DNA from: the human T2T-CHM13v2.0 reference genome, Homo sapiens
Strand: one strand, 5' to 3'
Assembly: GCF_009914755.1 (NCBI RefSeq)
Contig: NC_060928.1
Length of the DNA stretch: 64,000 nt
Part shown: positions 9,806-62,530 of the stretch, one piece after another
How positions within the stretch are numbered: the stretch's first letter is position 1
How the letters are laid out: each line of letters starts with the position of its first letter
Translations under genes and position numbers: made by a program
The notes under the pieces: model-generated
What the model was told of the DNA's origin: nothing
Seen by the model: only the letters and a program-made list of their open reading frames with translations
Databases searched by the model: none

Positions 9806-12496
9806 TCACGGGCAGTGTGTCCCACAGGGACGCCGACCTGCTGGAGCGTCTTGCCAGCATGGGCTCTGGCAGCCACGTGGGCCAGCAGGAGGGTCCCGCT
9901 GCACAGCTGTGGGGTGAGGATAGACTGGGTGGTGATATCGGCCATGACAGGGGCCTCTTCTGCTGGCAAGAGTGTGCCAGTAGCAAGTAGATGGACAGGC
10001 CTGCGTGTGAGGACGGAATGCAGGAGGGGCTCTTGTGAGGCTGGGTGTGGGGCCCTCACGGGAACCGTGGAGTAATGGCCAGGTAACTGCGTCATGTGGG
10101 CTAGTAGATTGGCCAGGACTTCGAACTGAAGGACAATAACGGGGAGTAGCTGTCAGGCCCTGGGAGTGTCTGAGTGTAAGTGGAGATGGGTTTTGTGTCA
10201 CTGAGGGATGCGTGGGAGCCATCCCTGTATAGGTACAGGTCATAGGGAGATACTCTCGTGAGGCCTGTGAGTGTCTAGGGTTGTCCTGGGTGCCTGGGGC
10301 TGACTGTGGCAGAAATCTGGGGAAGGCTGGAGAGAAGCTGGGAGACCCAGGAGAGTCCCTGAAGGCAGGGGGTGAAGAGGTGAAAGAAATGGTGGAGGGT
10401 TGCAGTAAGGTCCGTGAGTTTGTAGGTGATTCCTGGGTGCAGGAAGCTGACTCCAGGTGATATCTGGAGATGGTTGGAGAGTAGCTGAGAGAGACAGAAG
10501 AGTCCCTGAGGGCTGGGGGTGAGAACATGAGGGAGACTGGGGAGTAAGTCAGTGAAATTCGTGAGTTCGGTGGTGTATCGTGGGTGCCTGGAACTGACTC
10601 CAGCTGGAATCTAGAGAAGTTTTGAGAGTAGCTGAAAGAGACACGAGAGTCCCTGTGGGCTGAGGGCAAAGACCTGAGAGAGACCAGGGAGGACCTCAGT
10701 GAAGTCTGTGAGTCCGTAGGTGATTCTGGAGTGTGGGAGGCTGACTCCCGCTGAAATCTGGGCGTGGTGGGAGAGTAGCTGGGACAGACAGGAGAGTCCC
10801 AGGGGGCTGGGGGTGAAGACATGAGAGAGACTGGAGAGTAACTCAGTGAAACTGCTGAGTTTGTAGGTGATACCTGGGTGCCTGGAACTGACTCCCGCTG
10901 AAATCTGGGCATGGTTGGAGAGTAGCTGGGACCCACCGGAGAGTCCCTGAGGGCTGGGGGTGAAGACATGAGAGAGACCGGGGAGTAACTGAGTGAAACT
11001 GGTGAGTTTGGTGGTGACTCCGGGGTGTCTGGAACTGACTCCAGCTGCAATGTGGGCGTGGTTGGAGAGTAGCTGGGACAGATGGGAGAGTCCCTGAGGG
11101 ATGGTGAAGACATGAGAGAGACTGGGGAGTAACGCAGTGAAATTGGTGAGTTTGGTGGTGATTTCTGGGTGCCTGCAACGGACTCCCACTGAAGTGTGGG
11201 CGTGTTTGGAGAGTAGCTGGGACAGACAGGCGAGTCCCTGAGGGTTGGAGATAAAGACGTGCTAGAGACTGGGGAGTAACTCAGTGAAAGTGGTGGGCTT
11301 GGCGGTGATCCCTGGGTTCCTGGAACTGACCCGCGCTGAAATGTGGGCGTGGTTGGAGAGTAGCTGGGACAGACTGGAGGGTCCGTAAGGGCTGGGGGTG
11401 AAGACGTGAGAGAGACTGGCCAGGATCTCACTGAGGTCTGTGAGTTTGTAGGTGTTTCTGGGGTGTGGGGTACAGACTCCCGCTGAAATGTGGGCGTGGT
11501 TGGAGAGTAGCTGGGACAGACAGGAGAGTCATGGGTGGCTGGGGGTGAGCTGCTGGATGATGGCAGTAAGAACATATGGTATATTATTGATGAATGAGGT
11601 GACTGTGAAGAATCTCCAGAGGAGGACACGGGAGAACACAATGACATGAGTGACTGTCCTGCTTGGTTAGGAAATGGAAACGTAAAGCTGTGGAATTCTG
11701 TTGATGATGGATGTGAGAGTGGTGAAGCCCTGCGGGATGATGTAGAGTACTTCCACATCCCTGGTGAGGAGCTGCCCCTTGGGTCTGAGTTTCTGGGAGG
11801 GGAGAGGGAGAAGCTGGGTGAGGCAGGCATGAATCTTGAGGAGTCAGGGCTGGGGGACCGCTCATATTCTCCCGAGACCTGTGAGTCTCTGGGGGACTCC
11901 TGGGTGCATGCGACTGAATCCCGCAGGAACCTGGGGATGGCTGGATAGTAACTGGGAGCCACGGGAGAGTCCCTGAGGCCTGGGGGTGAAGAGATGAAAG
12001 ACACAGGGGTGGAGCACCGTGAGGCTCGTGAGTTTGTAGGTGATTCCTGGGTGTGGGGGGCTGACTCCAGCTGAAATCTGGGGTTGTTTGGAGAGTAGCT
12101 GGGAGACACAGGAGACCCCCCGAGAGCTGGGGGTGAGCTGCTGGGTGATGGCAGTAAGAACATGTGGTATATTATTGATGAACCTGGGGACTCTGAGGAA
12201 TCCTCAGAGGAGGACAGAGGAGAGCCCGATGACTTCATTGATTGCCCATCACGGTCAGGACAGGGAAATGGGAGCTTGTGGGATTCTGGTGATGACAGAG
12301 GTGAGTGTGGTGAAGCCCTAGGGGATGGTGAATGGTAGCTCCGGATCCCTGGTGAGGAGCTTCCCCTTAAGCCTGAGTTTCTGAGATGGGAGAGGGAGAA
12401 GCTGGGTGAGGCTCGCATGGACCTTGGGGAGTCCGGGCTGTGGGACCGTTCATAAGAAGAGCCAGACAAGACCCTACTGTTCTTAGGAGCAGACAT
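9806..12496 (-). CDS. Putative Ser/Pro-rich Pol II CTD-like repeat protein, copy 1 (896 aa, intact ORF)
   Basis: Uninterrupted 2.7 kb ORF with 49-aa repeats containing SYSPTTP; TATA/Inr upstream. Translation is not demonstrated. Confidence 0.55.
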   Translation of the reverse strand: MSAPKNSRVLSGSSYERSHSPDSPRSMRASPSFSLSHLRNSGLRGSSSPGIRSYHSPSPRASPHSPLSSPESHKLPFPCPDRDGQSMKSSGSPLSSSEDSSESPGSSIIYHMFLLPSPSSSPPALGGSPVSPSYSPNNPRFQLESAPHTQESPTNSRASRCSTPVSFISSPPGLRDSPVAPSYYPAIPRFLRDSVACTQESPRDSQVSGEYERSPSPDSSRFMPASPSFSLSPPRNSDPRGSSSPGMWKYSTSSRRASPLSHPSSTEFHSFTFPFPNQAGQSLMSLCSPVSSSGDSSQSPHSSIIYHMFLLPSSSSSPPATHDSPVCPSYSPTTPTFQRESVPHTPETPTNSQTSVRSWPVSLTSSPPALTDPPVCPSYSPTTPTFQRGSVPGTQGSPPSPPLSLSYSPVSSTSLSPTLRDSPVCPSYSPNTPTLQWESVAGTQKSPPNSPISLRYSPVSLMSSPSLRDSPICPSYSPTTPTLQLESVPDTPESPPNSPVSLSYSPVSLMSSPPALRDSPVGPSYSPTMPRFQRESVPGTQVSPTNSAVSLSYSPVSLMSSPPAPWDSPVCPSYSPTTPRFQRESASHTPESPTDSQTSLRSSLVSLRSLPSAHRDSRVSFSYSQNFSRFQLESVPGTHDTPPNSRISLTYSPVSLMFSPPALRDSSVSLSYSPTISRYHLESASCTQESPTNSRTLLQPSTISFTSSPPAFRDSPGSPSFSPAFPRFLPQSAPGTQDNPRHSQASREYLPMTCTYTGMAPTHPSVTQNPSPLTLRHSQGLTATPRYCPSVRSPGQSTSPHDAVTWPLLHGSREGPTPSLTRAPPAFRPHTQACPSTCYWHTLASRRGPCHGRYHHPVYPHPTAVQRDPPAGPRGCQSPCWQDAPAGRRPCGTHCP
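10250..12460 (-). repeat. ACRO1-type 147-bp satellite array (unit 1)
   Basis: gagagtagctggga recurs at exactly 147 bp spacing (10771 to 10918); some monomers are 144 bp. Confidence 0.85.
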
Positions 12497-12557
12497 GATT
12501 AGGAAACCTGCAGCTCCCAGGGGCCCCTACTAATTTTCTAACTCGCAGAAGGAAGGA

Positions 12558-12677
12558 GTGTGTGTGCGTGTGTGTGAGCGTGTGCGTGTGTGTGCGTGTG
12601 TGTGTGTCTGTGTGTGTGCGGTGTGAGGTATGTGCCCCTTAAGAAAATGGAAATCAACCAACCAATGGGACAGACAC

Positions 12678-12718
<41 letters not shown>

Positions 12719-12720
12719 GA
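12558..12720. repeat. (TG)n and (CAGA)n microsatellites in the leader; present in all nine units
   Basis: Visible tgtgtg and cagacaga runs, length-variable between units. Confidence 0.9.
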
Positions 12721-12839
12721 TTCACTTGCCCAAGTGTTCTGTCCTGTCCTCGGAATCCGCTTCCAAGTCGCAAGACGCCGTGAGCTCCAAGTCGACGCAG
12801 AGTCCGCCAAAGGCTCCGGCCGCCGATCCCCTCCGCGAA

Positions 12840-12935
12840 GATCTGAGTACAGGCCAGCCAGGGTGGGTTTAAATAGCCTCCTGCGCAGCCTAGCAGCAGA
12901 AAGGGCGGAGCTTCACTCCTCCTTTCCGTCAGTCA
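12840..12935 (-). promoter_or_regulatory. Candidate core promoter of copy 1: TATTTAAA (12875-12868), Inr TCAGATC (+1 at 12844), GC box, TGACG half-CRE
   Basis: TATA to Inr spacing 31 bp; Inr fits YYANWYY exactly. Confidence 0.6.
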
Positions 12936-13365
12936 CCCCCAACTTTCCCAGGCGTAGGAAACTGTTCTCCTGCTTTGATTTCATGCGCCACCTTTGGGAC
13001 AATCTAAGAACTTCCAAGTTTTCTTGGCCAGATATATTAGGAATTGTATGCACTGAAACACTGTAAACCAACTAGTGGTTCTGTGGTTCTCCACGTTGTG
13101 TTTTTGACACCAGCAGCATCCTTGCCACAATCAAACCCCGGAGATCCACAGATCTGTGTTGTAACAAGACCTCCCCCTGACCCTGATGCATGGCAGTTTA
13201 AGAAGTCTTTCCGTGTAAGCGAAAAGACTTTGAAGAAAAGGTGGAGATATGCGTTGTATAAACATTCTTTTGCTCTGGAACCACGTGGAGACTTGGGAGC
13301 CAGTTGGGTGGAGCATTCGTTGGATGAGGGTGCTCGGGTTCGGAATATCAAGGTGTGGCTCCAGA

Positions 13366-13376
13366 TAATCCAATCA
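13366..13376 (+). promoter_or_regulatory. DUX4-type double-homeodomain motif TAATCCAATCA (copy 1)
   Basis: Exact match to the TAAYYBAATCA consensus, ~525 bp upstream of the predicted TSS. Confidence 0.55.
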
Positions 13377-13439
13377 TCTAATTAAGATTCCAGTTGTGCT
13401 CATCTGTTTTAAAATTCCGTTTGGGTAAATTCTTTTATT

Positions 13440-13915
13440 CAGACTGAGAATGGCAAAGCCTCAACCCCAATTTCCAGGGAGGGTTGAGAGCCTCAGGTGG
13501 AGTTGATCACCAATAGCCTATGGTTTAACCCATCATGCCTATAGAATGAGGTCTCCATAAAAACCCAAAAGGACTGGGTTCAGAGAGGTTCTGGATAACA
13601 CTTCCTGGAAGGTAGTGCGCCCCTCCCCACATGCCGGGCCCCACATTTATTTCTGAACTTTTTGCAATGTCCGCTAAAATACAACGGCAAATGTAAGTGT
13701 TTCCCTGAGTGCCGTGAGCTCTTCCAGCAAATGAATGCAACTGAATCTGGGAGTGGTGGCAACCTGATTTATAGCCAGTTGCTGAGAAGCACAGGTAAAA
13801 CAACGTAGGGCTTCCCGTTGTTATTAGTGTGGGAGGCCTGCCTGGCGGGACTCGGCCCTTTGGAATCTAATGCTATGTCCCGGTAGATAGCGTCACCATT
13901 GAATTAGAAGACACA
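13440..13915 (+). mobile_element. LTR fragment, MER21-like; repeated in each complete spacer
   Basis: gagttgatcaccaatagcctatggtttaacccatcatgcctatagaatgaggtctccataaaaacccaaaaggactgggttcagagag resembles MER21 as recalled from memory. Confidence 0.6.
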
Positions 13916-14089
13916 CATATGTTGAGAATAATCTTTCTGGTCATTTGCTGCATGTCTTATTTACAATATGTAATCAAATTCTTTATCCTGACCTTATGGC
14001 ACCTGGGTTGAGAACCATGATTTGAACCAAACATTGGTCTGTCACTTTCTGAGTTTGAAACTTTATTTTGCCTTTAGCGTTTTGCTATT

Positions 14090-14392
14090 GCTTTTTCGTT
14101 TTCTTTTGTTTCGTTTCGTTTCTAAGTTCTGGGGTGTATGTGCAGGATGGGCAGATTTGTTACTAAGGTAAACGTGTGCCATGGTGGTTTGCTGCACCTG
14201 TCAACCCATCACCTAGGTATTAAGCCAAGCATGCAGTAGCTGTTTTCCTTAAGGCTCCGCCTCCCGAAAGGCCCCAGTGTGTGTTGTTCCCCTTCCTGTG
14301 TCCATGTGATCTCATTCTTCAGCTCCCATTATAAGTGAGAATGTGGCGTTTGGTTTTCTTTCCCTGGATTAGTTTGCTGAGGATAATGACCA
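14090..14392 (-). mobile_element. L1PA 3'-end fragment with decayed A-tail; repeated in each complete spacer
   Basis: gtaaacgtgtgccatggtggtttgctgcacc..aacccatcacctaggtattaagc is a typical L1PA 3' UTR end. Confidence 0.85.
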
Positions 14393-15129
14393 CACGTCAC
14401 CTCTGTTTTTGTTTTTTAGTATAGAGTAGCATTTTATTGAATAAGATTTGCTCACAGAAAAATAGGCTTAAATCTACAATGAATGCCAGACTCTACAGCA
14501 GAAAGCAATTTTCTCACTTTTCCACACACAATGGTTCCTACTAAGTGAAAAAAAGCCATAAAATTTCATTCACAAATGTACTAATCTGTCTCAAAACATC
14601 TCACATAATCATGCACTGCACTAAAGCCATTAGATCAGTTCTTCAGTGAGGTTAAAGAAGTATCCCTCTAATAACTGACTTTTATAATGCTATCAATATC
14701 CACTCCCAATCAGTATGCCATTGTTAATGGTGTACAGCATTACTGTATACAATGGAATTGATGACACCCATATCCACGGACAAACCGTGACTTATGATGG
14801 TTTGATTCATGATTTTTCAACGTTATGATGGGTTTATTGGAATATGAGATGCGGTTCTGAGTTACACTGGGTTTATGAGTATGCGACCCTATACTCCAGA
14901 AACAGCTGTATAAGGAAAAACAGGTGTACCTAATAAAAATATGCTTAGTGACTTGGGATAAACCAATAGATGTTCACAACTGATGGAGAGCCGTGAAAGA
15001 GAGATAGCGGTAAATAGTTACAATAACACAATTTTCCTGCACCTGTCGAGGATTTCCCCAAAAAAACGCAGAATGTGTGATGCACCTAAGGCATATGAAA
15101 GAGAGAGGGCAGAAGGAGTAAGAGAGTAA

Positions 15130-15225
15130 TAGGAGGAAGGAAGGAAGGAAGGAAAGAAGGAAGGTAGGAAGGAAGGAAGGAAGGAAGGAAGGAAGGAAGG
15201 AAGGAAAGAAGGACGAAAGGAAGGA
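15130..15225 (+). repeat. (GGAA)n microsatellite; one per spacer (also ~22170, 28325, 32375, 38670, 44950, 51100, 57110)
   Basis: Visible ggaa or ttcc runs. Confidence 0.9.
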
Positions 15226-15279
15226 TAAAACACCCGGTGTTACTAAAACCCCCCAAAAATATGGTTTTCCCCTGTGGGT

Positions 15280-15620
15280 AAGCCTACAATGTGGATGAAT
15301 CTTGAAAATATTGTGCTACGTGTTATGTCAGTCATAACAGCTCACCTATTGTGCAATTCTGTTTATAGGACATGTCCACAATATGGAAATCTATGCATAT
15401 GGGGTTGATCGCACTAGGTAGTTGCTACCTAGGGCTGAGGGTCAGGGAGAGGGTTTGAGACAGAATGAGGAGTGACTAATGCCTACAGGGTTTTTCTCTG
15501 GTCGGGGGTGATAAGACGTTCTACAACGGATTGCTAATTAAAATTGAATGTGCACAACCACTGGTATACTAAAAGCCACTCAATTCATGACTTTTAATGG
15601 GGGAATCTTATGTGGCGCAC
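15280..15620 (+). mobile_element. Old L1M 3'-UTR fragment, antisense to the ORF; repeated in each unit and truncated at 9431-9600
   Basis: gaggagtgactaatg..cagggtttttctctggtcgggggtgataaga..gtatactaaaagccact resembles L1MB/ME 3' ends. Confidence 0.6.
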
Positions 15621-15823
15621 TCTCATGGAGACCACGGCAGACATAGTGAGAGAGAAAAAGGTGAGTAAATATCTGAAACGGAGGCAGAAACAGAGAGAAT
15701 GAAAAGCCCTGTGAATGGAAGGGAGAGCGAAAAGGGAAAATGGTCCATTTACAAATGACAGATGTGAAACTGGGGTTCACATCAACAGTGTCACTGCCAG
15801 GAAGGAGGGTGATGCTAGCCATG

Positions 15824-18800
15824 TCACCGGTAGTGTGTCCCGCAGGGACGCCGACTTGCTGGAGCGTCTTGCCAGCATGGGCTCTGGCAGCCACGTGGGC
15901 CAGCAGGAGGGTCCCGCTGCACAGCTGTGGGGTGAGGATAGACTGGGTGGTGATATCGGAAATGACAGGGGCCTCTTCTGCTGGCAAGAGTGTGACAGTA
16001 GCAAGTAGGTGGACAGGCCTGCGTGTGAGGACGGAATGCAGGAGCGGGTCTTGTGCGGCTGGGTGTGGGGCCCTCACGGGAACCGTGGAGTAATGGCCAG
16101 GTAACTGCGTCATGTGGGCTACTAGACTGGCCAGGGCTTCGTGCTGAAGGACAATAACGGGGAGTAGCTGTCAGGCCCTCGGAGTGTCTGAGTGTAAGTG
16201 GAGATGGGTTTGGGGTCACTGAGGGATGCGTGGGAGCCATCCCTGTATAGGTACAGGTCATAGGGAGATAGTCTCGTGTGGCCTGTGAGTTTCTAGGGTT
16301 ATCCTGGGTGCCTGGGGCTGACTGTGGCAGAAATCTGGGGAAGGCGGGAGAGAAGCTGGGAGACCCAGGAGAGTCCCTGAAGGCAGGGGGTGAAGAGGTG
16401 AAAGAAATGGTGGAGGGTTGCAGTAAGGTCCGTGAGTTTGTAGGTGATTCCTGGGTGCGGGAAGCTGACTCCAGGTGAAATCTGGAGATGTTTGGAGAGT
16501 AGCTGAGAGAGACAGAAGAGTCCCTGAGGGCTGGGGGTGAGAACATGAGGGAGACTGGGGTGTAAGTCAGTGAAATTCGTGAGTTCGGTGGTGTATCGTG
16601 GGTGCCTGGAACTGACTCCAGCTGGAATCTAGAGAAGTTTTGAGAGTAGCTGAAAGAGACACGAGAGTCCCTGTGGGCTGAGGGCAAAGACCTGAGAGAG
16701 ACCAGGGAGGACTTCAGTGAAGTCTGTGAGTCCGTAGGTGATTCTGGAGTGTGGGAGGCTGACTCCCGCTGAAATCTGGGCGTGGTGGGGGAGTAGCTGG
16801 GACAGACAGGAGAGTCCCAGGGGGCTGGGGCTGAAGACATGAGAGAGACTGGGGAGTAACTCAGTGAAACTGCTGAGTTTGTAGGTGATACATGGGTGCC
16901 TGGGACTGACGCCCGCCGAAATCTGGGCATGGTTGGAGAGTAGCTGCGACACACAGGAGAGTCCCTGAGGGTTGAAGATAAAGACGTGCTAGAGACTGAG
17001 GTGTAACTGAGTGAAATAGGTGAGTTTGGTGGTGATTCCGGGGTGCCTGGAACTGACTCCAGCTGCAATGTGGGCGTGGTTGGAGAGTAGCTGGGACAGA
17101 TGGGAGAGTCCCTGAGGGATGGTGAAGACATGAGAGAGACTGGGGAGTAACGCAGTGAAATTGGTGAGTTTGGTGGTGATTTCTGGGTGCCTGCAACGGA
17201 CTCCCACTGAAGTGTGGGCGTGTTTGGAGAGTAGCTGGGACAGACAGGCGAGTCCCTGAGGGTTGGAGATAAAGACGTGCTAGAGACTGGGGAGTAACTC
17301 AGTGAAAGTGGTGGGCTTGGCGGTGATCCCTGGGTTCCTGGAACTGACCCTCGCTGAAATGTGGGCGTGGTTGGAGAGTAGCTGGGACAGACTGGAGGGT
17401 CCCTGAGGGCTGGGGGTGAAGACATGAGAGAGACCGGGGAGTAACTGAGTGAAACTGGTGAGTTTGGTGGTGACTCCGGGGTGCCTGGAACTGACTGCAG
17501 CTGAAATGTGGGCATGGTTGGAGAGTAGCTGGGACAGACAGGAGAGTCCCTGAGGGCTGGTGAAGACATGAGAGAGACTGGAGAGTAATTGAGTGAAATT
17601 GGGGAGTTTGGTGGTGATTCCTGGGTGCCTGGAACTGACTCCTGCTGAAATCTGGGCATGGTCGGAGAGTAGCTGGGACCCACAGGAGAGTCCCTGAGGG
17701 CTGGGGGTGCAGACATGAGAGAGACCGGGGAGTAACTGAGTGAAACTGGTGAGTTTGGTGGTGACACTGGGGTGCCTGGAACTGACTCCAGCTGAAATGT
17801 GGGCGTGGTTGGAGAGTAGCTGGGACAGACAGGAGAGTCCTTGAGGGCTGGGGGTGCAGACATGAGAGAGACCGGGGAGTAACTGAGTGAAACTGGTGAG
17901 TTAGGTGGTGACTCCGGGGTGCCTGGAACTGACTCCAGCTGAAATGTGGGCGTGGTTGGAGAGTAGCTGGGACAGACAGGAGAGTCCCTGAGGGTTGGAG
18001 ATAAAGACGTGCTAGAGACTGGGGAGTAATGGAGTGAAATTGGTGAGTTTGGAGGTGATTCCGGGGTGCCTGTAACTGACTCCAGATGCAAAGTGGGCGT
18101 GGTTGGAGAGTAGCTGGGACAGACGGGAGAGTCCCTGAGGGATGGTGAAGACATGAGAGAGACTGGGGAGTAACGCAGTGAAATTGGTGAGTTTGGTGGT
18201 GATTTCTGGGTGCCTGCAACGGACTCCCGCTGAAGTGTGGGCGTGTTTGGAGAGTAGCTGGGACAGTCAGGCGAGTCCCTGAGGGTTGGAGATAAAGACG
18301 TGCTAGAGACTGGGGAGTAACTCAGTGAAAGTGGTGGGCTTGGCGGTGATCCCTGGGTTCCTGGAACTGACCCGCGCTGAAATGTGGGCGTGGTTGGAGA
18401 GTAGCTGGGACAGACTAGAGGGTCCGTAAGGGCTGGGGGTGAAGACGTGAGAGAGACTGGCCAGGATCTCATTGAGGTCTGAGAGTTTGTAGGTGTTTCT
18501 GGGGTGTGGGGTACAGACTCCCGCTGAAATGTGGGCGTGGTTGGAGAGTAGCTGGGACAGACAGGAGAGTCATGGGTTGCTGGGGGTGAGCTGCTGTATG
18601 ATGGCAGTAAGAACATATGGTATATTATTGATGAATGAGGTGACTGTGAAGAATCTCCAGAGGAGGACACGGGAGAACACAATGACATGAGTGACTGTCC
18701 TGCTTGGTTAGGAAAGGGAAACGTAAAGCTGTGGAATTCTGTTGATGATGGATGTGAGAGTGGTGAAGCCCTGCGGGATGATGTAGAGTACTTCCACATC

Positions 18801-19537
18801 CCTGGTGAGGAGCTGCCCCTTGGGTCTGAGTTTCTGGGAGGGGAGAGGGAGAAGCTGGGTGAGGCAGGCATGAATCTTGAGGAGTCAGGGCTGGGGGACC
18901 GCTCATATTATCCCGAGACCTGTGATTCCCTGGGGGACTCCTGGGTGCATGGGGCTGACTCCCGCAGGAACCTGGGGATGGCTGGAGAGTAACTGGGAGC
19001 CACAGGAGAGTCCCTGAGGCCTGGGGGTGAAGAGATGAAAGACACAGGGGTGGAGCACCGCGAGGCTCGTGAGTTTGTAGGTGATTCCTGGGTGTGGGGG
19101 ACTGACTCCAGCTGAAATCTGGGGTTGTTTGGAGAGTAGCTGGGAGACACAGGAGACCCCCCGAGAGCTGGGGGTGAGCTGCTGGGTGATGGCAGTAAGA
19201 ACATGTGGTATATTATTGATGAACCTGGGGACTCTGAGGAATCCTCAGAGGAGGACACGAGAGAGCCCGATGGCTTCATTGATTGCCCATCACGGTGAGG
19301 ACAGGGAAATGGGAGCTTGTGGGATTCTGGTGATGACAGAGATGAGTGTGGTGAAGCCCTAGGGGATGGTGAATGGTAGCTCCGGATCCCTGGTGAGGAG
19401 CTTCCCCTTAAGCCTGAGATTCTGAGAGGGGAGGGGGAGAAGCTGGGTGAGGCTAGCATGGACCTTGGGGAGTCCAGGCTGGGGGACCGTTCATAAGAAG
19501 AGCCAGACAAGACCCTACTGTTCTTAGGTGCAGACAT
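15824..19537 (-). pseudogene. Copy 2: longest allele (would be 1237 aa) with in-frame nonsense E210*
   Basis: ORFs 18908-19537 (209 aa) and 15824-18871 (1015 aa) share one frame, separated by a GAA>TAA change; TATA reads AATTTAAA; DUX4 motif mutated. Confidence 0.65.
16270..19500 (-). repeat. ACRO1-type array (unit 2, expanded by ~7 monomers)
   Basis: 341 extra codons relative to the 896-aa copies. Confidence 0.8.
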
Positions 19538-22700: not shown

Positions 22701-22931
22701 AAAGGTGAGTGAATATCTGAAACGGAGGCAGAAACAGAGAGAATGAAAAGCCCTGTGAATGGAAGGGAGAGCGAAAAGGGAAAATGGTCCTATTTCCAAA
22801 TGACAGATGTGAAACTGGGGTTCACATCAACAGTGTCACTGCCAGGAAGGAGGGTGATGCTAGCCATGTCACCGGTAGTGCGTCCCGCAGGGACGCCGAC
22901 CTGCTGGAGCGTCGTGCCAGCATGGGCTCTG

Positions 22932-33510: not shown

Positions 33511-33684
33511 TAGCAAAACGCTAAAGGCAAAATAAAGTTTCCAACTCAGAAAGTGACAGACCAATGTTTGGTTCAAATCATGGTTCTCAACCCAGGTGCC
33601 ATAAGGTCAGGATAAAGAATTTGATTACATATTGTAAATAAGACATGCAGCAAATGACCAGAAAGATTATTCTCAACATATGTG

Positions 33685-34221: not shown

Positions 34222-34232
34222 TGATTGGATTA
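34222..34232 (-). promoter_or_regulatory. DUX4-type motif TGATTGGATTA (copy 5); also intact at 40520, 46800, 52955 and 58960
   Basis: Exact consensus match at the same position in each unit. Confidence 0.55.
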
Positions 34233-34669: not shown

Positions 34670-34765
34670 TGACTGACGGAAAGGAGGAGTGAAGCTCCAC
34701 CCTTTCCGCTGCTAGGTTGCGCCCGAGGCTATTTAAACCCACCCTGGCTGGCCTATACTCAGATC
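34670..34765 (+). promoter_or_regulatory. Candidate core promoter of copy 5: TATTTAAA 34730-34737, Inr +1 at 34761 (equivalents 41025/41056, 47308/47339, 53463/53494, 59461/59492)
   Basis: 31-bp TATA-Inr spacing in each of these copies; in copy 5 there is no ATG between +1 and the ORF start. Confidence 0.6.
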
Positions 34766-38295: not shown

Positions 38296-38301
38296 ATTAA
38301 A
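38296..38301 (+). terminator. Candidate polyadenylation signal ATTAAA downstream of the ORF, conserved in the units
   Basis: cccccATTAAAagtcatgaattgagtggctttt..tgtggttgt with a GU-rich downstream element; lies in antisense L1M sequence. Confidence 0.35.
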
Positions 38302-41181: not shown

Positions 41182-41214
<33 letters not shown>

Positions 41215-41367
41215 GTGTCTGTCTCATTGGTTGGTTGATTTCCATTTTCTTAAGGGGCACATACCTCACACCGCACACACACAGACACACACACACGCAC
41301 ACACACTCCTTCCTTCTGCGAGTTAGAAAATTAGTAGGGGCCCCTGGGAGCTGCAGGTTTCCTAATC

Positions 41368-47200: not shown

Positions 47201-47666
47201 AGTAGGAGAACAGTTTCCTACGAGGTGTAGCCTGGGAAAGTTGGGGGTGACTGACGGAAAGGAGGAGTGAAGCTCCGCCCTTTCCGCTGCTAGGTTGCGC
47301 CCGAGGCTATTTAAACCCACGCTGGCTGGCCTGTACTCAGATCTTCGCGGAGCGGATCAGCGGCCGGAGCGTTTGGCGGACTCTGCGTGGACTTGGAGCT
47401 CACGGCGTCTTGCGACTTGGAGGCGGATTCAGAGGACAGGACAGAACACTTGGGCAAGTGAATCTCTGTCTGTCTGTCTGTCTGTGTGACTGTCTCATTG
47501 GTTGGTTGATTTCCATTTTCTTAAGGGGCATATACCTCACACCGCACACACACAGACACACACACACGCACACACACGCACACACTCACACACACGCACA
47601 CACACTCCTTCCATCTGCGAGTTAGAAAATTAGTAGGGGCCCCTGGGAGCTGCAGGTTTCCTAATC

Positions 47667-50501
47667 ATGTCTGCACCTAAGAACAGTAGGGTCTTGTCTG
47701 GCTCTTCTTATGAACGGTCCCCCAGCCCGGACTCCCCAAGGTCCATGCGAGCCTCACCCAGCTTCTCCTTCTCCCCTCTCAGAAACTCAGGCTTAATGGG
47801 AAGCTCCTCACCAGGGATCCGGAGCTACCATTCACCATCCCCTAGGGCTTCACCACACTCACCTCTGTCATCACCAGAATCCCACAAGCTCCCATTTCCC
47901 TGTCCTCACCATGATGGGCAATCAATGAAGCCATCGGGCTCTCCTGTGTCCTCCTCTGAGGATTCCTCAGAGTCCCCAGGTTCATCAATAATATACCACA
48001 TGTTCTTACTGCCATCACCCAGCAGCTCACCCCCAGCTCTCGGGGGGTCTCCTGTGTCTCCCAGCTACTCTCCAAACAACCCCAGATTTCAGCTGGAGTC
48101 AGCCCCCCACACCCGGGAATCACCTACAAACTCACGAGCCTCACGGTGCTCCACCCTTGTGTCTTTCATCTCTTCACCCCCAGGCCTCAGGGACTCTCCT
48201 GTGGCTCCCAGTTACTCTCCAGCCATCCCCAGGTTCCTGCGGGAGTCAGCCCCATGCACCCAGGAGTCGCCCAGAGACTCACACGTCTCGGGAGAATATG
48301 AGCGGTCCCCCAGCCCTGACTCCTCAAGATTCATGCCTGCCTCACCCAGCTTCTCCCTCTCCCCTCCCAGAAACTCAGACCGAAGGGGCAGCTCCTCACC
48401 AGGGATGTGGAAGAACTCTACATCATCCCGCAGGGTTTCACCAGTCTCACATCCATCATCAACAGAATTCCACAGCTTTACGTTTCCCTTTCCTAACCAA
48501 GCAGGACAGTCACTCATGTCATTGTGTTCTCCCATGTCCTCCTCTGGAGATTCTTCACAGTCACCTCATTCATCAATAATATACCATATGTTCTTACTGC
48601 CATCATCCAGCAGCTCACCCCCAGCCACCCATGACTCTCCTGTCTGTCCCAGCTACTCTCCAACCACGCCCACATTTCAGCGGCTGTCTGTACCCCACAC
48701 CCCAGCAACACCTACAAACTCACAGACCTCAGTGAGATCCTGGCCAGATTCTCTCACGTCTTCACCCCCAGCCCTTACGGACCCTCCAGTCTGTCCCAGC
48801 TACTCTCCAACCACGCCCACATTTCAGCGCGGGTCGGTTCCGGGAACCCAGGGATCACCGCCAAGCCCACCACTTTCACTGAGTTACTCCCCAGTCTCTA
48901 GCACGTCTTTATCTCCAACCCTCAGGGACTCGCCTGTCTGTCCCAGCTACTCTCCAAACACGCCCACACTTCAGCCGGAGTCCGTTGCAGGCACCCAGAA
49001 ATCACCACCAAACTCACCAATTTCACTGCGTTACTCCCCAGTCTCTCTCATGTCTTCACCATCCCTCAGGGACTCTCCCGTCTGTCCCAGCTACTCTCCA
49101 ACCACGCCCACATTGCAGCTGGAGTCAGTTCCAGGCACCCCGGAATCACCACCAAACTCACCTGTTTCACTCAGTTACTCCTCAGTCTCTAGCACGTCTT
49201 TATCTCCAACCCTCAGGGACTCTCCTGTGTGTCCCAGCTACTCTCCAACCACGCCCACACTTCAGCGGGAGTCAGTTCCAGGCACCCAGGAATCACCACC
49301 AAACTCACCAATTTCACTCAATTACTCTCCAGTCTCTCTCATGTCTTCACCAGCCCTCAGGGACTCTCCTGTGTGTCCCAGATACTCTCCAACCATGCCC
49401 AGATTTCAGCGGGAGTCAGTTCCAGGCACCCAGGTATCACCTACAAACTCAGCAGTTTCACTGAGTTACTCCCCAGTCTCTCTCATGTCTTCACCCCCAG
49501 CCCCCTGGGACTCTCCTGTCTGTCCCAGCTACTCCCCCACCACGCCCAGATTTCAGCGGGAGTCAGCCTCCCACACTCCAGAATCACCTACGGACTCACA
49601 GACTTCACTGAGGTCCTCCCTGGTCTCTCTCAGGTCTTTGCCCTCAGCCCACAGGGACTCTTGTGTCTCTTTCAGCTACTCTCAAAACTTCTCTAGATTC
49701 CAGCTGGAGTCAGTTCCAGGCACCCACGATACACCACCGAACTCACGAATTTCACTGACTTACTCCCCAGTCTCCCTCATGTTCTCACCCCCAGCCCTCA
49801 GGGACTCTTCTGTCTCTCTCAGCTACTCTCCAACCATCTCCAGATTTCACGTGGAGTCAGCTTCACGCACCCAGGAATCACCTACAAACTCACGGACCTT
49901 ACTGCAACCCTCCCCCATTTCTTTCACCTCTTCACCCCCTGCCTTCAGGGACTCTCCTGGGTCTCCCAGCTTCTCTCCAGCCTTCCCCAGATTTCTGCCA
50001 CAGTCAGCCCCAGGCACCCAGGACAACCCTAGACACTCACGGGCCACACGAGACTATCTCCCTATGACCTGTACCTATACAGGGATGGCTCCCACGCATC
50101 CCTCAGTGACCCCAAACCCATCTCCACTTACACTCAGACACTCCCAGGGCCTGACAGCTACTCCCTGTTATTGTCCTTCAGTTCGAAGCCCTGGCCAATC
50201 TACTAGCCCACATGACGCAGTTACCTGGCCATTACTCCACGGTTCCCGTGAGGGCCCCACACCCAGCCTCACAAGAGACCCTCCTGCATTCCGTCCTCAC
50301 ACGCAGGCCTGTCCATCTACTTGCTACTGTCACACTCTTGCCAGCAGAAGAGGCCCCTGTCATGGCCGATATCACCACCCAGTCTATCCTCACCCCACAG
50401 CTGTGCAGCGGGACCCTCCTGCTGGCCCACGTGGCTGCCAGAGCCCATGCTGGCAAGACGCTCCAGCAGGTCGGCGTCCCTGCGGGACACACTGCCGGTG
50501 A
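47667..50501 (+). CDS. Putative CTD-like repeat protein, copy 7 (944 aa)
   Basis: Intact ORF, one monomer fewer than copies 5 and 6, long C-terminal allele. Confidence 0.55.
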   Translation: MSAPKNSRVLSGSSYERSPSPDSPRSMRASPSFSFSPLRNSGLMGSSSPGIRSYHSPSPRASPHSPLSSPESHKLPFPCPHHDGQSMKPSGSPVSSSEDSSESPGSSIIYHMFLLPSPSSSPPALGGSPVSPSYSPNNPRFQLESAPHTRESPTNSRASRCSTLVSFISSPPGLRDSPVAPSYSPAIPRFLRESAPCTQESPRDSHVSGEYERSPSPDSSRFMPASPSFSLSPPRNSDRRGSSSPGMWKNSTSSRRVSPVSHPSSTEFHSFTFPFPNQAGQSLMSLCSPMSSSGDSSQSPHSSIIYHMFLLPSSSSSPPATHDSPVCPSYSPTTPTFQRLSVPHTPATPTNSQTSVRSWPDSLTSSPPALTDPPVCPSYSPTTPTFQRGSVPGTQGSPPSPPLSLSYSPVSSTSLSPTLRDSPVCPSYSPNTPTLQPESVAGTQKSPPNSPISLRYSPVSLMSSPSLRDSPVCPSYSPTTPTLQLESVPGTPESPPNSPVSLSYSSVSSTSLSPTLRDSPVCPSYSPTTPTLQRESVPGTQESPPNSPISLNYSPVSLMSSPALRDSPVCPRYSPTMPRFQRESVPGTQVSPTNSAVSLSYSPVSLMSSPPAPWDSPVCPSYSPTTPRFQRESASHTPESPTDSQTSLRSSLVSLRSLPSAHRDSCVSFSYSQNFSRFQLESVPGTHDTPPNSRISLTYSPVSLMFSPPALRDSSVSLSYSPTISRFHVESASRTQESPTNSRTLLQPSPISFTSSPPAFRDSPGSPSFSPAFPRFLPQSAPGTQDNPRHSRATRDYLPMTCTYTGMAPTHPSVTPNPSPLTLRHSQGLTATPCYCPSVRSPGQSTSPHDAVTWPLLHGSREGPTPSLTRDPPAFRPHTQACPSTCYCHTLASRRGPCHGRYHHPVYPHPTAVQRDPPAGPRGCQSPCWQDAPAGRRPCGTHCR
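47705..50050 (+). repeat. ACRO1-type array (unit 7)
   Basis: 147/144-bp periodicity. Confidence 0.8.
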
Positions 50502-53821: not shown

Positions 53822-56512
53822 ATGTCTGCACCTAAGAACAGTAGGGTCTTGTCTGGCTCTTCTTATGAACGGTCCCCCAGCCCGGACTCCCCAAGGTCCA
53901 TGCGAGCCTCACCCAGCTTCTCCTTCTCCCCTCTCAGAAACTCAGGCTTAAGGGGAAGCTCCTCACCAGGGATCCGGAGCTACCATTCACCATCCCCTAG
54001 GGCTTCACCACACTCACCTCTGTCATCACCAGAATCCCACAAGCTCCCATTTCCCTGTCCTCACCGTGATGGGCAATCAATGAAGCCATCGGGCTCTCCT
54101 CTGTCCTCCTCTGAGGATTCCTCAGAGTCCCCAGGTTCATCAATAATATACCACATGTTCTTACTGCCATCACCCAGCAGCTCACCCCCAGCTCTCGGGG
54201 GGTGTCCTGTGTCTCCCAGCTACTCTCCAAACAACCCCAGATTTCAGCTGGAGTCAGCTGCCCACACCCAGGAATCACCTACAAACTCACGAGCCTCACG
54301 GTGCTCCACCCCTGTGTCTTTCATCTCTTCACCCCCAGGCCTCAGGGACTCTCCTGTGGCTCCCAGTTACTCTCCAGCCATCCCCAGGTTCCTGCAGGAG
54401 TCAGCCCCATGCACCCAGGAGTCCCCCAGAGACTCACAGGTCTCGGGAGAATATGAGCGGTCCCCCAGCCCTGATTCCTCAAGATTCATGCCTGCCTCAC
54501 CCAGCTTCTCCCTCTCCCCTCTCAGAAACTCAGACCCAAGGGGCAACTCCTCACCAGGGATGTGGAAGTACTCTACATCATCCCACAGGGCTTCACCACT
54601 CTCACATCCATCATCAACAGAATTCCACAGCTTTACGTTTCCCTTTCCTAACCAAGCAGGACAGTCACTCATGTCATTGTGTTCTCCCGTGTCCTCCTCT
54701 GGAGATTCTTCACAGTCACCTCATTCATCAATAATATACCATATGTTCTTACTGCCATCATCCAGCAGCTCACCCCCAGCCACCCATGACTCTCCTGTCT
54801 GTCCCAGCTACTCTCCAACCACGCCCACATTTCAGCGGGAGTCTGTACCCCACACCCCAGAAACACCTACAAACTCACAGACCTCAGTGAGATCCTGGCC
54901 AGTCTCTCTCACGTCTTCACCCCCAGCCCTTACGGACCCTCCAGTCTGTCCCAGCTACTCTCCAACCACGCCCACATTTCAGCGCGGGTCAGTTCCAGGA
55001 ACCCAGGGATCACCGCCAAGCCCACCACTTTCACTGAGTTACTCCCCAGTCTCTAGCACGTCTTTATCTCCAACCCTCAGGGACTCGCCTGTCTGTCCCA
55101 GCTACTCTCCAAACACGCCCACACTTCAGTGGGAGTCCGTTGCAGGCACCCAGAAATCACCACCAAACTCACCAATTTCACTGCGTTACTCCCCAGTCTC
55201 TCTCATGTCTTCACCATCCCTCAGGGACTCTCCCATCTGTCCCAGCTACTCTCCAACCACGCCCACATTGCAGCTGGAGTCAGTTCCAGGCACCCCGGAA
55301 TCACCACCAAACTCACCAATTTCACTCAGTTACACCTCAGTCTCTAGCACGTCTTTATCTTCAACCCTCAGGGACTCTCCTGTGTGTCCCAGCTACTCTC
55401 CAACCATGCCCAGATTTCGGCGGGCGTCAGTCCCAGGCACCCATGTATCACCTACAAACTCAACAGTTTCACTGAGTTACTCCCCAGTCTCTCTCATGTC
55501 TTCACCCCCAGCCCCCTGGGACTCTCCTGTCTGTCCCAGCTACTCCCCCACCACGCCCAGATTTCAGCGGGAGTCAGCCTCCCACACTCCAGAATCACCT
55601 ACGGACTCACAGACTTCACTGAAGTCCTCCCTGGTCTCTCTCAGGTCTTTGCCCTCAGCCCACAGGGACTCTCGTGTCTCTTTCAGCTACTCTCAAAACT
55701 TCTCTAGATTCCAGCTGGAGTCAGTTCCAGGCACCCACGATACACCACCGAACTCACGAATTTCACTGACTTACACCCCAGTCTCCCTCATGTTCTCACC
55801 CCCAGCCCTCAGGGACTCTTCTGTCTCTCTCAGCTACTCTCCAAACATCTCCAGATTTCACCTGGAGTCAGCTTCCCGCACCCAGGAATCACCTACAAAC
55901 TCACGGACCTTACTGCAACCCTCCACCATTTCTTTCACCTCTTCACCCCCTGCCTTCAGGGACTCTCCTGGGTCTCCCAGCTTCTCTCCAGCCTTCCCCA
56001 GATTTCTGCCACAGTCAGCCGCAGGCACCCAGGATAACCCTAGAAACTCACAGGCCACACGAGACTATCTCCCTATGACCTGTACCTATACAGGGATGGC
56101 TCCCACGCATCCCTCAGTGACCCCAAACCCATCTCCACTTACACTCAGACACTCCGAGGGCCTGACAGCTACTCCCCGTTATTGTCCTTCAGTACGAAGC
56201 CCTGGCCAGTCTAGTAGCCCACATGACGCAGTTACCTGGCCATTACTCCACGGTTCCCGTGAGGGCCCCACACCCAGCCGCACAAGACCCGCTCCTGCAT
56301 TCCGTCCTCACACGCAGGCCTGTCCACCTACTTGCTACTGTCACACTCTTGCCAGCAGAAGAGGCCCCTGTCATTTCCGATATCACCACCCAGTCTATCC
56401 TCACCCCACAGCTGTGCAGCGGGACCCTCCTGCTGGCCCACGTGGCTGCCAGAGCCCATGCTGGCAAGACGCTCCAGCAAGTCGGCGTCCCTGCGGGACA
56501 CACTACCGGTGA
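53822..56512 (+). CDS. Putative CTD-like repeat protein, copy 8 (896 aa; mosaic of copy 5-type and copy 2-type sequence)
   Basis: Intact ORF with intact promoter motifs. Confidence 0.55.
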   Translation: MSAPKNSRVLSGSSYERSPSPDSPRSMRASPSFSFSPLRNSGLRGSSSPGIRSYHSPSPRASPHSPLSSPESHKLPFPCPHRDGQSMKPSGSPLSSSEDSSESPGSSIIYHMFLLPSPSSSPPALGGCPVSPSYSPNNPRFQLESAAHTQESPTNSRASRCSTPVSFISSPPGLRDSPVAPSYSPAIPRFLQESAPCTQESPRDSQVSGEYERSPSPDSSRFMPASPSFSLSPLRNSDPRGNSSPGMWKYSTSSHRASPLSHPSSTEFHSFTFPFPNQAGQSLMSLCSPVSSSGDSSQSPHSSIIYHMFLLPSSSSSPPATHDSPVCPSYSPTTPTFQRESVPHTPETPTNSQTSVRSWPVSLTSSPPALTDPPVCPSYSPTTPTFQRGSVPGTQGSPPSPPLSLSYSPVSSTSLSPTLRDSPVCPSYSPNTPTLQWESVAGTQKSPPNSPISLRYSPVSLMSSPSLRDSPICPSYSPTTPTLQLESVPGTPESPPNSPISLSYTSVSSTSLSSTLRDSPVCPSYSPTMPRFRRASVPGTHVSPTNSTVSLSYSPVSLMSSPPAPWDSPVCPSYSPTTPRFQRESASHTPESPTDSQTSLKSSLVSLRSLPSAHRDSRVSFSYSQNFSRFQLESVPGTHDTPPNSRISLTYTPVSLMFSPPALRDSSVSLSYSPNISRFHLESASRTQESPTNSRTLLQPSTISFTSSPPAFRDSPGSPSFSPAFPRFLPQSAAGTQDNPRNSQATRDYLPMTCTYTGMAPTHPSVTPNPSPLTLRHSEGLTATPRYCPSVRSPGQSSSPHDAVTWPLLHGSREGPTPSRTRPAPAFRPHTQACPPTCYCHTLASRRGPCHFRYHHPVYPHPTAVQRDPPAGPRGCQSPCWQDAPASRRPCGTHYR
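53860..56065 (+). repeat. ACRO1-type array (unit 8)
   Basis: 147/144-bp periodicity. Confidence 0.8.
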
Positions 56513-59500: not shown

Positions 59501-59617
59501 CGGAGGGGATCGGCGGCCGGAGCCTTTGGCGGACTCTGCGTCGACTTGGAGCTCACGGCGTCTTGCGACTTGGAAGCGGATTCCGAGGACAGGACAGAAC
59601 ACTTGGGCAAGTGAATC

Positions 59618-59658
<41 letters not shown>

Positions 59659-59839
59659 GTGTCTGTCCCATTGGTTGGTTGATTTCCATTTTCTTAAGGG
59701 GCACATACCTCACACCGCACACACACAGACACACACACACGCACACACACGCACATGCTCACACACACGCACACACACTCCTTCCTTCTGCGAGTTAGAA
59801 AATTAGTAGGGGCCCCTGGGAGCTGCAGGTTTCCTAATC

Positions 59840-62530: not shown

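What the first reader, a model, noticed from the sequence alone, without database searches (positions are those of the whole stretch)
9806..62530. A 'satellite' array built like a multicopy protein-coding gene family
Seen: in six of nine units the whole 147-bp satellite array lies inside a single 896-972 aa ORF. The ORF also has a non-repetitive start and a unique ~120-140 aa C-terminal tail in the same frame. Length differences among intact copies are whole monomers, 3-bp indels or one stop polymorphism, while the other frames are broken repeatedly. The ORF is bracketed by TATA+Inr, a good-context first AUG and a downstream ATTAAA. Known, from memory: ACRO1 is annotated as a non-coding 147-bp satellite within a ~6 kb unit. 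Inference: each unit is a gene cassette hidden by repeat masking. Caveat: a stop-free monomer whose length is a multiple of 3, plus recent duplication, can give long ORFs without selection.
Basis: partly seen in the sequence, partly recalled or inferred. Interest (0 to 1): 0.9.

Follow-up and report, generated by a model that had tools for sequence, protein, structure and literature searches.

The report
Conserved reading frame inside ACRO satellite units
Each 6-kb unit of the human ACRO satellite carries a long serine- and proline-rich reading frame that has stayed open across primates, so it is probably a hidden many-copy gene, though nothing here shows that it is translated.

Summary
The window has nine ~6.1-6.3 kb ACRO units, four inverted. 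Six carry an intact 896-972 codon frame that swallows the whole 147-bp array. Three are broken: two nonsense, one frameshift.

The frame is more than chance. Stops are missing from this frame only: pooled human comparisons give 9 seen vs 22.5 expected, while the two control frames fit (14/15.5, 16/17.9). Seven old, diverged monomers give 0 vs 5.9. A marmoset protein keeps the same start, build and tail at 68% identity, where a neutral simulation gave 8.5 stops and 0 of 300 open runs.

Genome-wide, 89 of 116 scored copies sit in full-length open frames. A solitary compact copy on chromosome 2 keeps a 359-codon frame.

Against: amino-acid changes are fully neutral at every depth tested. Published work shows sense ACRO1 RNA blocks its own elongation. 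No transcript or translation data could be examined.

Best reading (0.6): a primate-specific, intronless, many-copy gene. Its internal 49-residue repeat (seven heptads, like the RNA polymerase II tail) is the "satellite". The unit and the monomer translation are in print; the whole-unit frame and its conservation are not, in the library searched.

The parts
9806..12496 (-). U1 reading frame, intact, 896 codons
   Evidence: mirror copy of U9
15824..19537 (-). U2 reading frame, broken by TAA at codon 210; the residual 1015-codon frame starts at an internal Met (15824-18871)
   Evidence: the same nonsense is on two chr21 copies
22869..25703 (-). U3 reading frame, broken by a stop at codon 28; its N-terminal part is 6.7% diverged; early TGA end
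29009..31992 (-). U4 reading frame, frameshifted after about codon 520; the shifted frame stays open to codon 648
35088..38006 (+). U5 reading frame, intact, 972 codons (early TGA; the long end would be at 38069)
41368..44286 (+). U6 reading frame, intact, 972 codons (early TGA)
47667..50501 (+). U7 reading frame, intact, 944 codons, long end
53822..56512 (+). U8 reading frame, intact, 896 codons
59840..62530 (+). U9 reading frame, intact, 896 codons
   Evidence: mirror copy of U1
36036..37591 (+). 147-bp ACRO1 array of U5 (10.6 copies; higher-order periods 291 and 438), wholly inside the frame
34730..34765 (+). TATTTAAA, 20 nt, then CTCAGATC (TATA-like box and initiator-like site) about 330 nt before the U5 ATG. 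Exact copies also at 12840-12875(-), 26027-26062(-), 41025-41060, 47308-47343, 53463-53498 and 59461-59496
   Evidence: 27 of 30 genome copies keep each motif. Use as a promoter is inferred
34222..34232 (-). TAATCCAATCA, a match to the DUX4 site TAAYBBAATCA (motif recalled), about 860 nt before the ATG. Also at 13366, 40520, 46800, 52955 and 58960; absent from the three broken units
   Evidence: 6 matches, 0.39 expected; 26 of 30 genome copies
38296..38301 (+). ATTAAA, the only poly(A)-signal hexamer within 700 nt after the stop of U5; same place in all nine units
8336..17560 (.). Left arm of an inverted duplication (99.5% identical to 54776-64000, which runs to the window's end)

Best explanation
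Each ACRO unit carries an intronless, primate-specific gene, and the 147-bp ACRO1 'satellite' is that gene's in-frame internal repeat.

The frame reads, in order:
- a unique ~119-residue head;
- two diverged monomers;
- a second copy of head plus monomers;
- 7 to 13 further 48- or 49-residue monomers;
- a unique 118-140-residue Cys/His-bearing tail.

Each monomer is seven heptads with Ser-Pro in register, like the tail of RNA polymerase II.

Shown here:
- the frame and its build;
- a lack of stops that is specific to this one frame;
- a bias toward in-frame indels;
- the same start-to-tail frame in other primates;
- promoter-like, DUX4-site-like and poly(A)-signal motifs once per unit.

Taken from print: ACRO1 RNA rises in 4-8-cell embryos and after DUX4 expression, and the arrays are hypomethylated in the male germline.

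Inferred: sense transcription from the TATA/initiator pair, and translation into a ~100 kDa basic, disordered Ser/Pro-rich protein with ~90 proline-directed phosphorylation sites. Selection would act on keeping the frame open and on a few tail blocks, not on most residues. A role as a mimic or decoy of the polymerase tail is a guess.
For: 1. Nonsense changes in human copies.
- Across 29 copies' first 1230 nt: 2 seen vs 7.2 expected (P=0.025). The two shifted control frames gave 4 vs 4.1 each.
- Pooled with the window's C-terminal part and three dispersed copies: 9 vs 22.5 (P=0.0011). Controls: 14 vs 15.5 and 16 vs 17.9.

2. Old divergence inside the frame.
- Seven old monomers are 65-79% identical to the core consensus (263 substitutions counted). 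They carry 0 stops in this frame against 5.9 simulated (P about 0.002). Frame 2 fits the simulation, at 5 vs 3.9.

3. Other primates.
- The marmoset protein P0003 has the same Met, both heads and the same tail. Identity is 63-74% by region, with one single-codon gap in 413 residues.
- A neutral simulation run down to 68% identity gave a mean of 8.5 stops, and 0 of 300 runs stayed open.
- Titi monkey, baboon and colobus records and unnamed compact forms (P0010, P0123) keep the start and/or the tail. CPSTCYCHTLA-type and IIYHMF blocks are conserved.

4. Indels.
- 7 of 14 indels inside the frame are multiples of 3 (P=0.012 against a recalled 20%).
- There are 0 indels in 1230 nt across 28 copies, against 6 non-microsatellite indels in the 1.5-kb spacer.

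5. Copies across the genome.
- 89 of 116 scored copies sit in full-length open frames.
- Full frames of 945, 993 and 1090 codons were read on chr22 and chr3.
- The solitary chr2 copy is 7-9% diverged yet keeps an intact 359-codon frame with no indel.

6. Heptad period.
- Ser-Pro spacing is a multiple of 7 in 64 of 154 pairs.
Against: - Amino-acid changes are neutral everywhere tested. Synonymous counts were 38 vs 42.8 expected among 29 copies, with codon-position counts of 47/66/48. The same holds in every frequency class, in the window's units, and against copies 8-9% diverged (18/48/40 vs 20.8/45.8/45.0).
- Many copies are broken: 3 of 9 window units, 9 of 22 other fetched copies and 27 of 116 scored copies.
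- With a few hundred copies (232-249 first-look candidates), selection on any one copy should be weak.
- Boots et al. 2020 (PMC7714431, passages read) found no stable ACRO1 transcripts in HeLa cells. They showed that 1.1-1.4 kb of sense ACRO1 nearly abolishes reporter RNA in cis.
- Only proteins, not DNA, of the other primates were seen. A gene model could hide a break, and P0003 has an ~80-residue stretch in the shifted frame.
- No Pfam family matches. RefSeq annotates no gene on these frames in this window (hub note).
- The strand and ends of the embryonic RNA were not given in the passages read.
Confidence: 0.6

Rival explanations
1. Relic frame. An ancestral primate gene with a heptad-repeat exon was captured and amplified as the ACRO unit. 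The frame was kept open by selection in the past, but the human copies now drift. What the arrays do today is done by the RNA or DNA: self-limiting polymerase II-binding RNA, chromatin near nucleolar organisers, or embryonic satellite transcription.
For: - Substitution is fully neutral at 2-9% divergence.
- About a quarter to a third of copies are broken.
- Dispersed copies carry 1-4 TGA stops in the tail.
- Published reporter data show a sense-RNA effect, and no stable transcript was found in HeLa cells.
- The arrays are so homogeneous that many open copies descend from a few recent ones.
Against: - Nonsense changes are still under-represented among young human variants: 2 vs 7.2, and 9 vs 22.5 pooled, with control frames on target.
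- The human lineage since its split from New World monkeys should by itself have fixed several stops in the first 413 codons.
- The chr2 solitary copy, outside any array, is still open at 7-9% divergence.
- An RNA aptamer role does not explain why only one frame avoids stops.
Confidence: 0.25
2. Chance frame. A 147-bp monomer that happened to lack stops in one frame (its length a multiple of 3) was amplified. Recent duplication of the 6-kb unit then multiplied one lucky long frame.
For: - Core monomers are nearly stop-free in all three sense frames, and the sense strand is purine-poor at 0.35-0.41.
- The shifted frame also runs open for about 130 codons in U4.
- Units are only 2-3% apart, and two are mirror copies.
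- Indels are rare in this sequence generally.
Against: - The frame also runs through about 335 codons of unique heads and tail and through seven old monomers. There the other two sense frames collect stops at about the simulated rate, and this frame has none.
- This frame has the highest, not the lowest, exposure to nonsense mutation: 7.2 vs 4.1 and 4.1.
- The frame is open in monkeys at 58-68% identity.
Confidence: 0.07

Closest known systems
ACRO / ACRE composite repeat (ACRO1 satellite in a 6-kb unit)
   Same: This is that repeat. It has the 147-bp monomer and the ~6.1-6.3 kb unit, and it sits at the chr4 pericentromere, chr3 and the acrocentric short arms. [quoted passage not shown] The monomer's conceptual translation is reported as ~50% identical to the polymerase II tail (PMC7714431, passages).
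   Different: The papers read treat it as non-coding. Boots et al. translate only the monomer and never mention a unit-long frame or stop codons. [quoted passage not shown] No paper found tests the frame.
DUX4 in the D4Z4 macrosatellite (recalled)
   Same: A multi-kb tandem unit in which each copy carries an intronless frame. It is active in cleavage-stage embryos and silenced in somatic cells, and its coding nature was first argued from frame conservation across species. ACRO1 RNA is itself reported as DUX4-induced (PMC8990217, PMC11467316 and 10.64898/2025.12.22.696056, passages).
   Different: DUX4 has folded homeodomains under clear amino-acid constraint. Here no domain family matches and residues change neutrally. 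Here the unit also contains a nested satellite that is itself coding.
RNA polymerase II largest-subunit C-terminal domain
   Same: Heptad period with Ser-Pro in register. YSPTxPx-like heptads are present. The only solved-structure sequence matches are RPB1 tails (E 1e-7 to 0.27, heavy composition bias). Public records name monkey relatives RPB1 or 'RPB1-like'.
   Different: No polymerase core is present. Only about 2 of 7 heptads per monomer keep SYSP. The repeat unit is 49 residues, not 7. It is a resemblance, not membership.
Coding minisatellites of mucin-type Pro/Thr/Ser-rich domains (recalled)
   Same: In-frame tandem repeats that vary in copy number by whole units. The frame is kept while residues evolve almost freely.
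   Different: Those sit in single-copy, multi-exon secreted proteins. Here the whole gene is repeated several hundred times in satellite arrays. No signal peptide was looked for.

Membership tests
ACRO1 satellite / ACRO (ACRE) composite | 147-bp monomer in tandem arrays | tested here: met
   period 147, 8.6-15.2 copies per unit, 76-81% matches.
ACRO1 satellite / ACRO (ACRE) composite | About 6-kb higher-order unit, on chr4 pericentromere and acrocentric short arms | tested here: met
   periods of 6018-6299 bp; copies on C3, C4, C13, C14, C15, C21 and C22.
ACRO1 satellite / ACRO (ACRE) composite | Spacer made of L1PA10, MER21B and L1MB8 pieces | not testable with these tools
   No repeat-family library is on hand; taken from PMC12767296 (passage).
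Protein-coding gene | Long open frame with a start and a stop shared by copies | tested here: met
Protein-coding gene | Frame-specific lack of nonsense and frameshift changes | tested here: met
   frame 0 gives 9 vs 22.5 while the control frames fit; 7 of 14 indels are in frame; 0 indels in the frame vs 6 in the spacer.
Protein-coding gene | Frame conserved between species | tested here: met
   Protein records only; the DNA was not seen.
Protein-coding gene | Fewer amino-acid-changing than silent changes (dN/dS below 1) | tested here: not met
   observed counts equal the neutral expectation in all comparisons.
Protein-coding gene | Sense mRNA and translation | not testable with these tools
   Only family-level RNA reports without strand were seen. 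No paper was found on translation.
RNA polymerase II C-terminal domain (RPB1) | Tandem YSPTSPS heptads attached to the polymerase core | tested here: not met
   A heptad period is present, but there is no core domain. The sequence match is only to the low-complexity tail.
DUX4 target | DUX4 site TAAYBBAATCA (recalled) near the start of transcription | tested here: met
   6 of 9 units, against 0.39 expected; 26 of 30 copies. The site lies about 510 nt before the TATA box. Binding was not testable.

The most novel reading that the evidence does not exclude
The ACRO1 satellite arose by runaway in-frame expansion of a heptad-repeat exon of a small primate gene: head, one or two monomers, then tail, as still seen in the compact chr2 copy and in P0123. 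The expanded gene was then itself amplified to hundreds of copies beside the nucleolar organisers. At embryonic genome activation DUX4 switches these copies on together. The cell is flooded with a ~100 kDa mimic of the polymerase II tail, which competes for tail kinases, phosphatases or condensates and so tunes the first wave of transcription.
Probability: 0.15. Interest if true: 0.9.

Novelty: new member of a known kind. Interest (0 to 1): 0.7.

Why it matters
If the frame is translated, the human genome holds a few hundred copies of an unannotated ~100 kDa protein gene in regions that were absent from references until 2022. The gene would be switched on at the moment the embryo's genome awakens and in DUX4-driven muscle disease. 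That would change how 'satellite RNA' signals from ACRO1 in embryos, cancers and FSHD are read. It would add a candidate effector to the DUX4 programme. It would also give a clear case of a satellite born from a coding repeat. The copy number of these arrays changes between generations (PMC12746033, passage), so gene dosage would vary among people.

Tried and rejected
- Pfam scan of the 972-residue protein: no family.
- Rfam scan of one unit, 33000-41400: no family.
- A signature of amino-acid constraint was looked for and not found: by codon position, by synonymous share, by variant frequency class and by older divergence.
- Head A against head B: the per-position identities of 0.79/0.72/0.69 show no clear third-position excess.
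- The heads are not recognisably derived from the monomer: 41-51% identity with many gaps.
- The tail has no relatives outside this family: 14 hits, all of this family, among 1.84 billion representatives.
I worked instead from 30 loci, six small fetches and the own-genome search tables.
- Structure prediction of the tail was not available, nor was the protein atlas or the earlier-findings store.
- One literature search with loose term matching returned nothing relevant.
- bioRxiv supplements are closed. Supplementary Figure 11 of PMC12746033, which may show a gene model for ACRO, was not seen.
Full report
WHAT IS THERE

The window (T2T-CHM13 chr4:49228001-49292000) holds nine ACRO units of 6.0-6.3 kb. 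Four are on the minus strand (U1-U4) and five on the plus strand (U5-U9). Each unit has the same 40-nt start region and the same 60-nt end region. Six units carry an uninterrupted frame of 896-972 codons. U2 has a TAA at codon 210, U3 has a stop at codon 28, and U4 has a frameshift. The 147-bp arrays found by Tandem Repeats Finder lie wholly inside these frames.

The other two sense frames have 11-23 stops and the antisense frames 35-113. Length differences among intact copies are whole monomers of 48 or 49 codons, plus a TGA/TGC polymorphism 21 codons before the long stop. An exact TATTTAAA-N20-CTCAGATC sits about 330-360 nt before the ATG in 7 of 9 units. The leader read (U5) has no upstream ATG, and the ATG context is CTAATCATGT. 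ATTAAA lies 226-227 nt after the long stop in all nine units and is the only such hexamer within 700 nt.

THREE CORRECTIONS
- Positions 8336-17560 are a 99.5% inverted copy of 54776-64000. U1 and U9 are identical in the parts compared, and part of U2 mirrors U8, so the nine units are fewer than nine independent samples.
- The 'non-repetitive start' is a 588-nt block, a 98-codon head plus two diverged monomers, present twice at 73% identity and without a single indel. The heads themselves are not recognisably monomer-derived.
- Core monomers are almost free of stops in all three sense frames, and U4's shifted frame runs open for about 130 codons. The open frame through the core array therefore carries no information. 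The test lies in the heads, the old monomers and the tail.

IS IT MORE THAN CHANCE?

Among the window's units, changes split into synonymous, non-synonymous and nonsense as follows:
- N-terminal part: 37/107/2 seen against 40.6/99/6.4 expected.
- C-terminal part: 21/59/2 seen against 21.5/56.6/3.7 expected.

Expectations were conditioned on mutation type and CpG context. The two shifted frames, used as controls, behave the same way for synonymous and non-synonymous changes.

The window's own genome could be searched. The first 1213 nt of the frame has at least 249 candidate copies, and the best 40 are 97-100% identical, on chromosomes 3, 4, 13, 14, 15, 21 and 22. In 29 of the 30 copies fetched, over 1230 nt, I counted 161 variant alleles:
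- synonymous: 38 seen vs 42.8 expected;
- non-synonymous: 121 vs 111;
- nonsense: 2 vs 7.2 (P=0.025);
- codon positions 1, 2 and 3: 47, 66 and 48 changes;
- control frames: 4 nonsense vs 4.1 expected in each.

The neutral ratio holds for singletons, for variants in 2-4 copies and for variants in 5 or more copies. So there is no sign of constraint on residues, but there is a shortage of stops in this one frame.

OLDER DIVERGENCE POINTS THE SAME WAY

Seven monomers inside the frame are 65-79% identical to the core consensus. They differ from it by 263 substitutions and no indel. A simulation applied the same number and types of substitutions to the consensus:
- frame 0: 5.9 +/- 2.4 stops simulated, 0 observed (about 2 in 1000 runs);
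- frame 2: 3.9 simulated, 5 observed;
- frame 1: 7.8 simulated, 3 observed. That consensus already carried a polymorphic stop.

Shared ancestry of some monomers makes this P value somewhat optimistic.

Three dispersed copies, 7-9% diverged from U7, were fetched:
- chr2:161.74 Mb. A compact solitary copy in which head A and two monomers are fused in frame to the last monomer and the tail. Its 359-codon frame is intact, with no indel in 1351 aligned nt. Its upstream 832 nt is 90% identical to U7's with 4 gap openings. The TATA and initiator motifs are kept.
- chr19. Its indels are 30, 3 and 3 nt long, and it has one premature TGA.
- chr2:132.72 Mb. It has four premature TGA stops, all in the tail, and looks like a decaying copy.

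In all three comparisons the synonymous share is again neutral: 18/48/40 seen vs 20.8/45.8/45.0 expected.

Pooling the human tests, nonsense changes in frame 0 are 9 seen vs 22.5 expected (P=0.0011). The controls give 14 vs 15.5 and 16 vs 17.9. Of 14 indels seen inside the frame, 7 are multiples of 3 (P=0.012 against a recalled ~20% for neutral DNA). In 28 copies the 1230-nt N-terminal part has no indel, while the 1.5-kb spacer has 6 outside its microsatellites.

OTHER PRIMATES

A search of 5.8 billion proteins found few relatives, and all are of this family.

The marmoset record is 832 residues, and its source names it 'RPB1'. It begins with the same Met, has both heads and ends with the same tail. 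Identity to U7 by region is 68% (head A), 68%, 73% (head B), 63% and 74% (tail), with one single-codon gap in the first 413 residues.

A neutral simulation started from the human sequence needed 16.6% nucleotide divergence to reach 68% identity. It produced 8.5 stops on average, and none of 300 runs stayed open. Because array copies within a species coalesce recently, choosing an intact copy cannot undo stops fixed on the long shared lineage.

Other relatives:
- Two titi monkey 'hypothetical proteins' keep the tail, and baboon and red colobus 'RPB1-like' records keep the start.
- Two unnamed compact forms keep both. P0010 is built like the human chr2 copy. P0123 is only 49% identical in the tail.
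- A block CPSTCYCHTLA is almost invariant across 11 sequences.

The tail has no relative outside this family among 1.84 billion representatives.

Caveats: I saw proteins, not DNA. The marmoset model contains an ~80-residue stretch in the shifted frame. Records named as Plasmodium ovale are human contamination (compare PMC6581058).

THE FAMILY IN THE HUMAN GENOME
- With the C-terminal 349 residues as query, 89 of 116 scored matches lie in open frames of canonical full length, and 27 do not.
- With the first 413 residues as query, 87 of 101 lie in open frames of at least 906 codons, and only 2 of 101 have a stop inside the match.
- Full frames of 945, 993 and 1090 codons were read on chr22 and chr3.
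- These arrays are nearly identical within themselves, so the high share of open copies is not independent evidence.

THE PRODUCT

U7 would give 944 residues: 100.7 kDa, pI 9.1, 23% Ser, 18% Pro, 0.5% Lys, with 78 Ser-Pro and 14 Thr-Pro sites. Ser-Pro spacings are multiples of 7 in 64 of 154 pairs, so each 49-residue monomer is seven heptads. The only matches among solved structures are the C-terminal tails of RPB1, with heavy composition bias. Pfam finds nothing.

WHAT IS IN PRINT
- The unit is known as 'ACRE' (PMC7714431) and as the ACRO composite of ACRO1, L1PA10, MER21B and L1MB8 (PMC12767296 and its later version; passages read).
- Boots et al. translated the monomer, noted ~50% identity with the polymerase tail, and read this as an RNA-protein affinity. 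Their text has no mention of a unit-long frame.
- They also showed that sense ACRO1 RNA binds polymerase II (1029 sense against 1 antisense mappings). In reporters, 1.1-1.4 kb of it nearly abolishes the RNA in cis. They found no stable transcripts in HeLa cells.
- ACRO1 RNA peaks at the 4-cell stage (PMC6545021), or rises after cleavage (PMC12287470).
- It is induced by DUX4 (PMC8990217, PMC11467316, 10.64898/2025.12.22.696056).
- It is hypomethylated in spermatogonial stem cells and sperm (PMC5832720). For all of these papers I read passages only.
[quoted passage not shown] Its supplement was not visible.
- Searches for ACRO1 with 'open reading frame', 'protein-coding' plus 'embryo', or 'Ribo-seq', and for ACRO with 'composite repeat' and 'open reading frame', found no test of the frame.

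A match to the DUX4 site (motif recalled) occurs once per unit in 6 of 9 units, against 0.39 expected. It lies about 510 nt before the TATA box and is missing from the three broken units.

VERDICT

The frame has been kept open by something that reads triplets in this one phase. The simplest reading is translation of a fast-evolving, disordered protein from a many-copy gene.

Three things keep this at about 0.6: the complete lack of residue-level constraint, the published self-attenuation of the sense RNA, and the absence of any transcript-end or ribosome data.

The main rival (0.25) is a relic of a once-coding gene whose present role, if any, is at the RNA or chromatin level. Pure chance is unlikely (0.07).

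As a kind of thing it joins the macrosatellite-embedded gene families such as DUX4 in D4Z4. The twist is that the nested satellite is itself the coding repeat.

Noticed in passing
window 8336-17560 and 54776-64000: A 9.2-kb inverted duplication at 99.5% identity that runs to the window's right end. The ACRO block is therefore flanked by palindrome arms, and the switch of orientation lies between U4 and U5 (about 32.0-34.3 kb).
   Followed up: partly
window 18910 region (U2 codon 210); L017, L018 (chr21:6.54 Mb): The same G-to-T nonsense change (TAA) is carried by a chr4 unit and by two chr21 units, which points to exchange of ACRO units between chromosomes.
   Followed up: partly
L034 (chr2:161739001-161741300), frame at 833-1912: A solitary compact ACRO gene copy with an intact 359-codon frame and its upstream TATA and initiator motifs. 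Homology ends about 50 nt after the stop. It matches the build of the unnamed protein P0010.
   Followed up: yes
own genome: chr2:132.72 Mb, chr19:47.23 and 47.28 Mb, chr13:9.35 Mb, chr15:4.71 Mb, chr20:29.99 Mb: Dispersed older copies carry 1-4 TGA stops within the 190-codon tail match, unlike the array copies. Two of them (chr19:47.23 Mb and chr2:132.72 Mb) were fetched and examined.
   Followed up: partly
window 62602-62607 and its mirror near 9730: A GTAAAT splice-donor-like site just after the frame exists only in the two edge units; U5 has GGAAAT there. The RefSeq pseudogene models LOC124906467 and LOC124900865 end their first exon at that point.
   Followed up: partly
window 13366, 34222, 40520, 46800, 52955, 58960: The DUX4-site-like motif is present in exactly the six units with intact frames and absent from the three broken ones. 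Two of the broken units, U2 and U4, also lack the exact TATA string; U3 keeps it.
   Followed up: no
window 34880-35030 and the same place in other units: (TCTG)n and (CA)n microsatellites in the presumed 5' leader vary in length among copies. They account for about 14 of the 20 spacer indel events left after setting aside the 13 alignment-end artefacts.
   Followed up: partly
window 6032-9317 and 63019-63805: GC-rich tandem repeats of 195-224 bp (also 100, 58 and 420) flank the ACRO block on both sides in mirror orientation. RefSeq places 'IF-2-like' pseudogene exons and enhancer or silencer marks nearby.
   Followed up: no
proteins P0005, P0017: ACRO frame fragments are deposited as Plasmodium ovale wallikeri proteins, one of them fused to parasite sequence. 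This is human DNA contamination in that assembly.
   Followed up: no
own genome: Open-frame lengths of 958, 1055 and 1058 occur beside the canonical 955/956 and 1052. This suggests further one- to three-codon in-frame length variants in chr22 and chr15 arrays.
   Followed up: no
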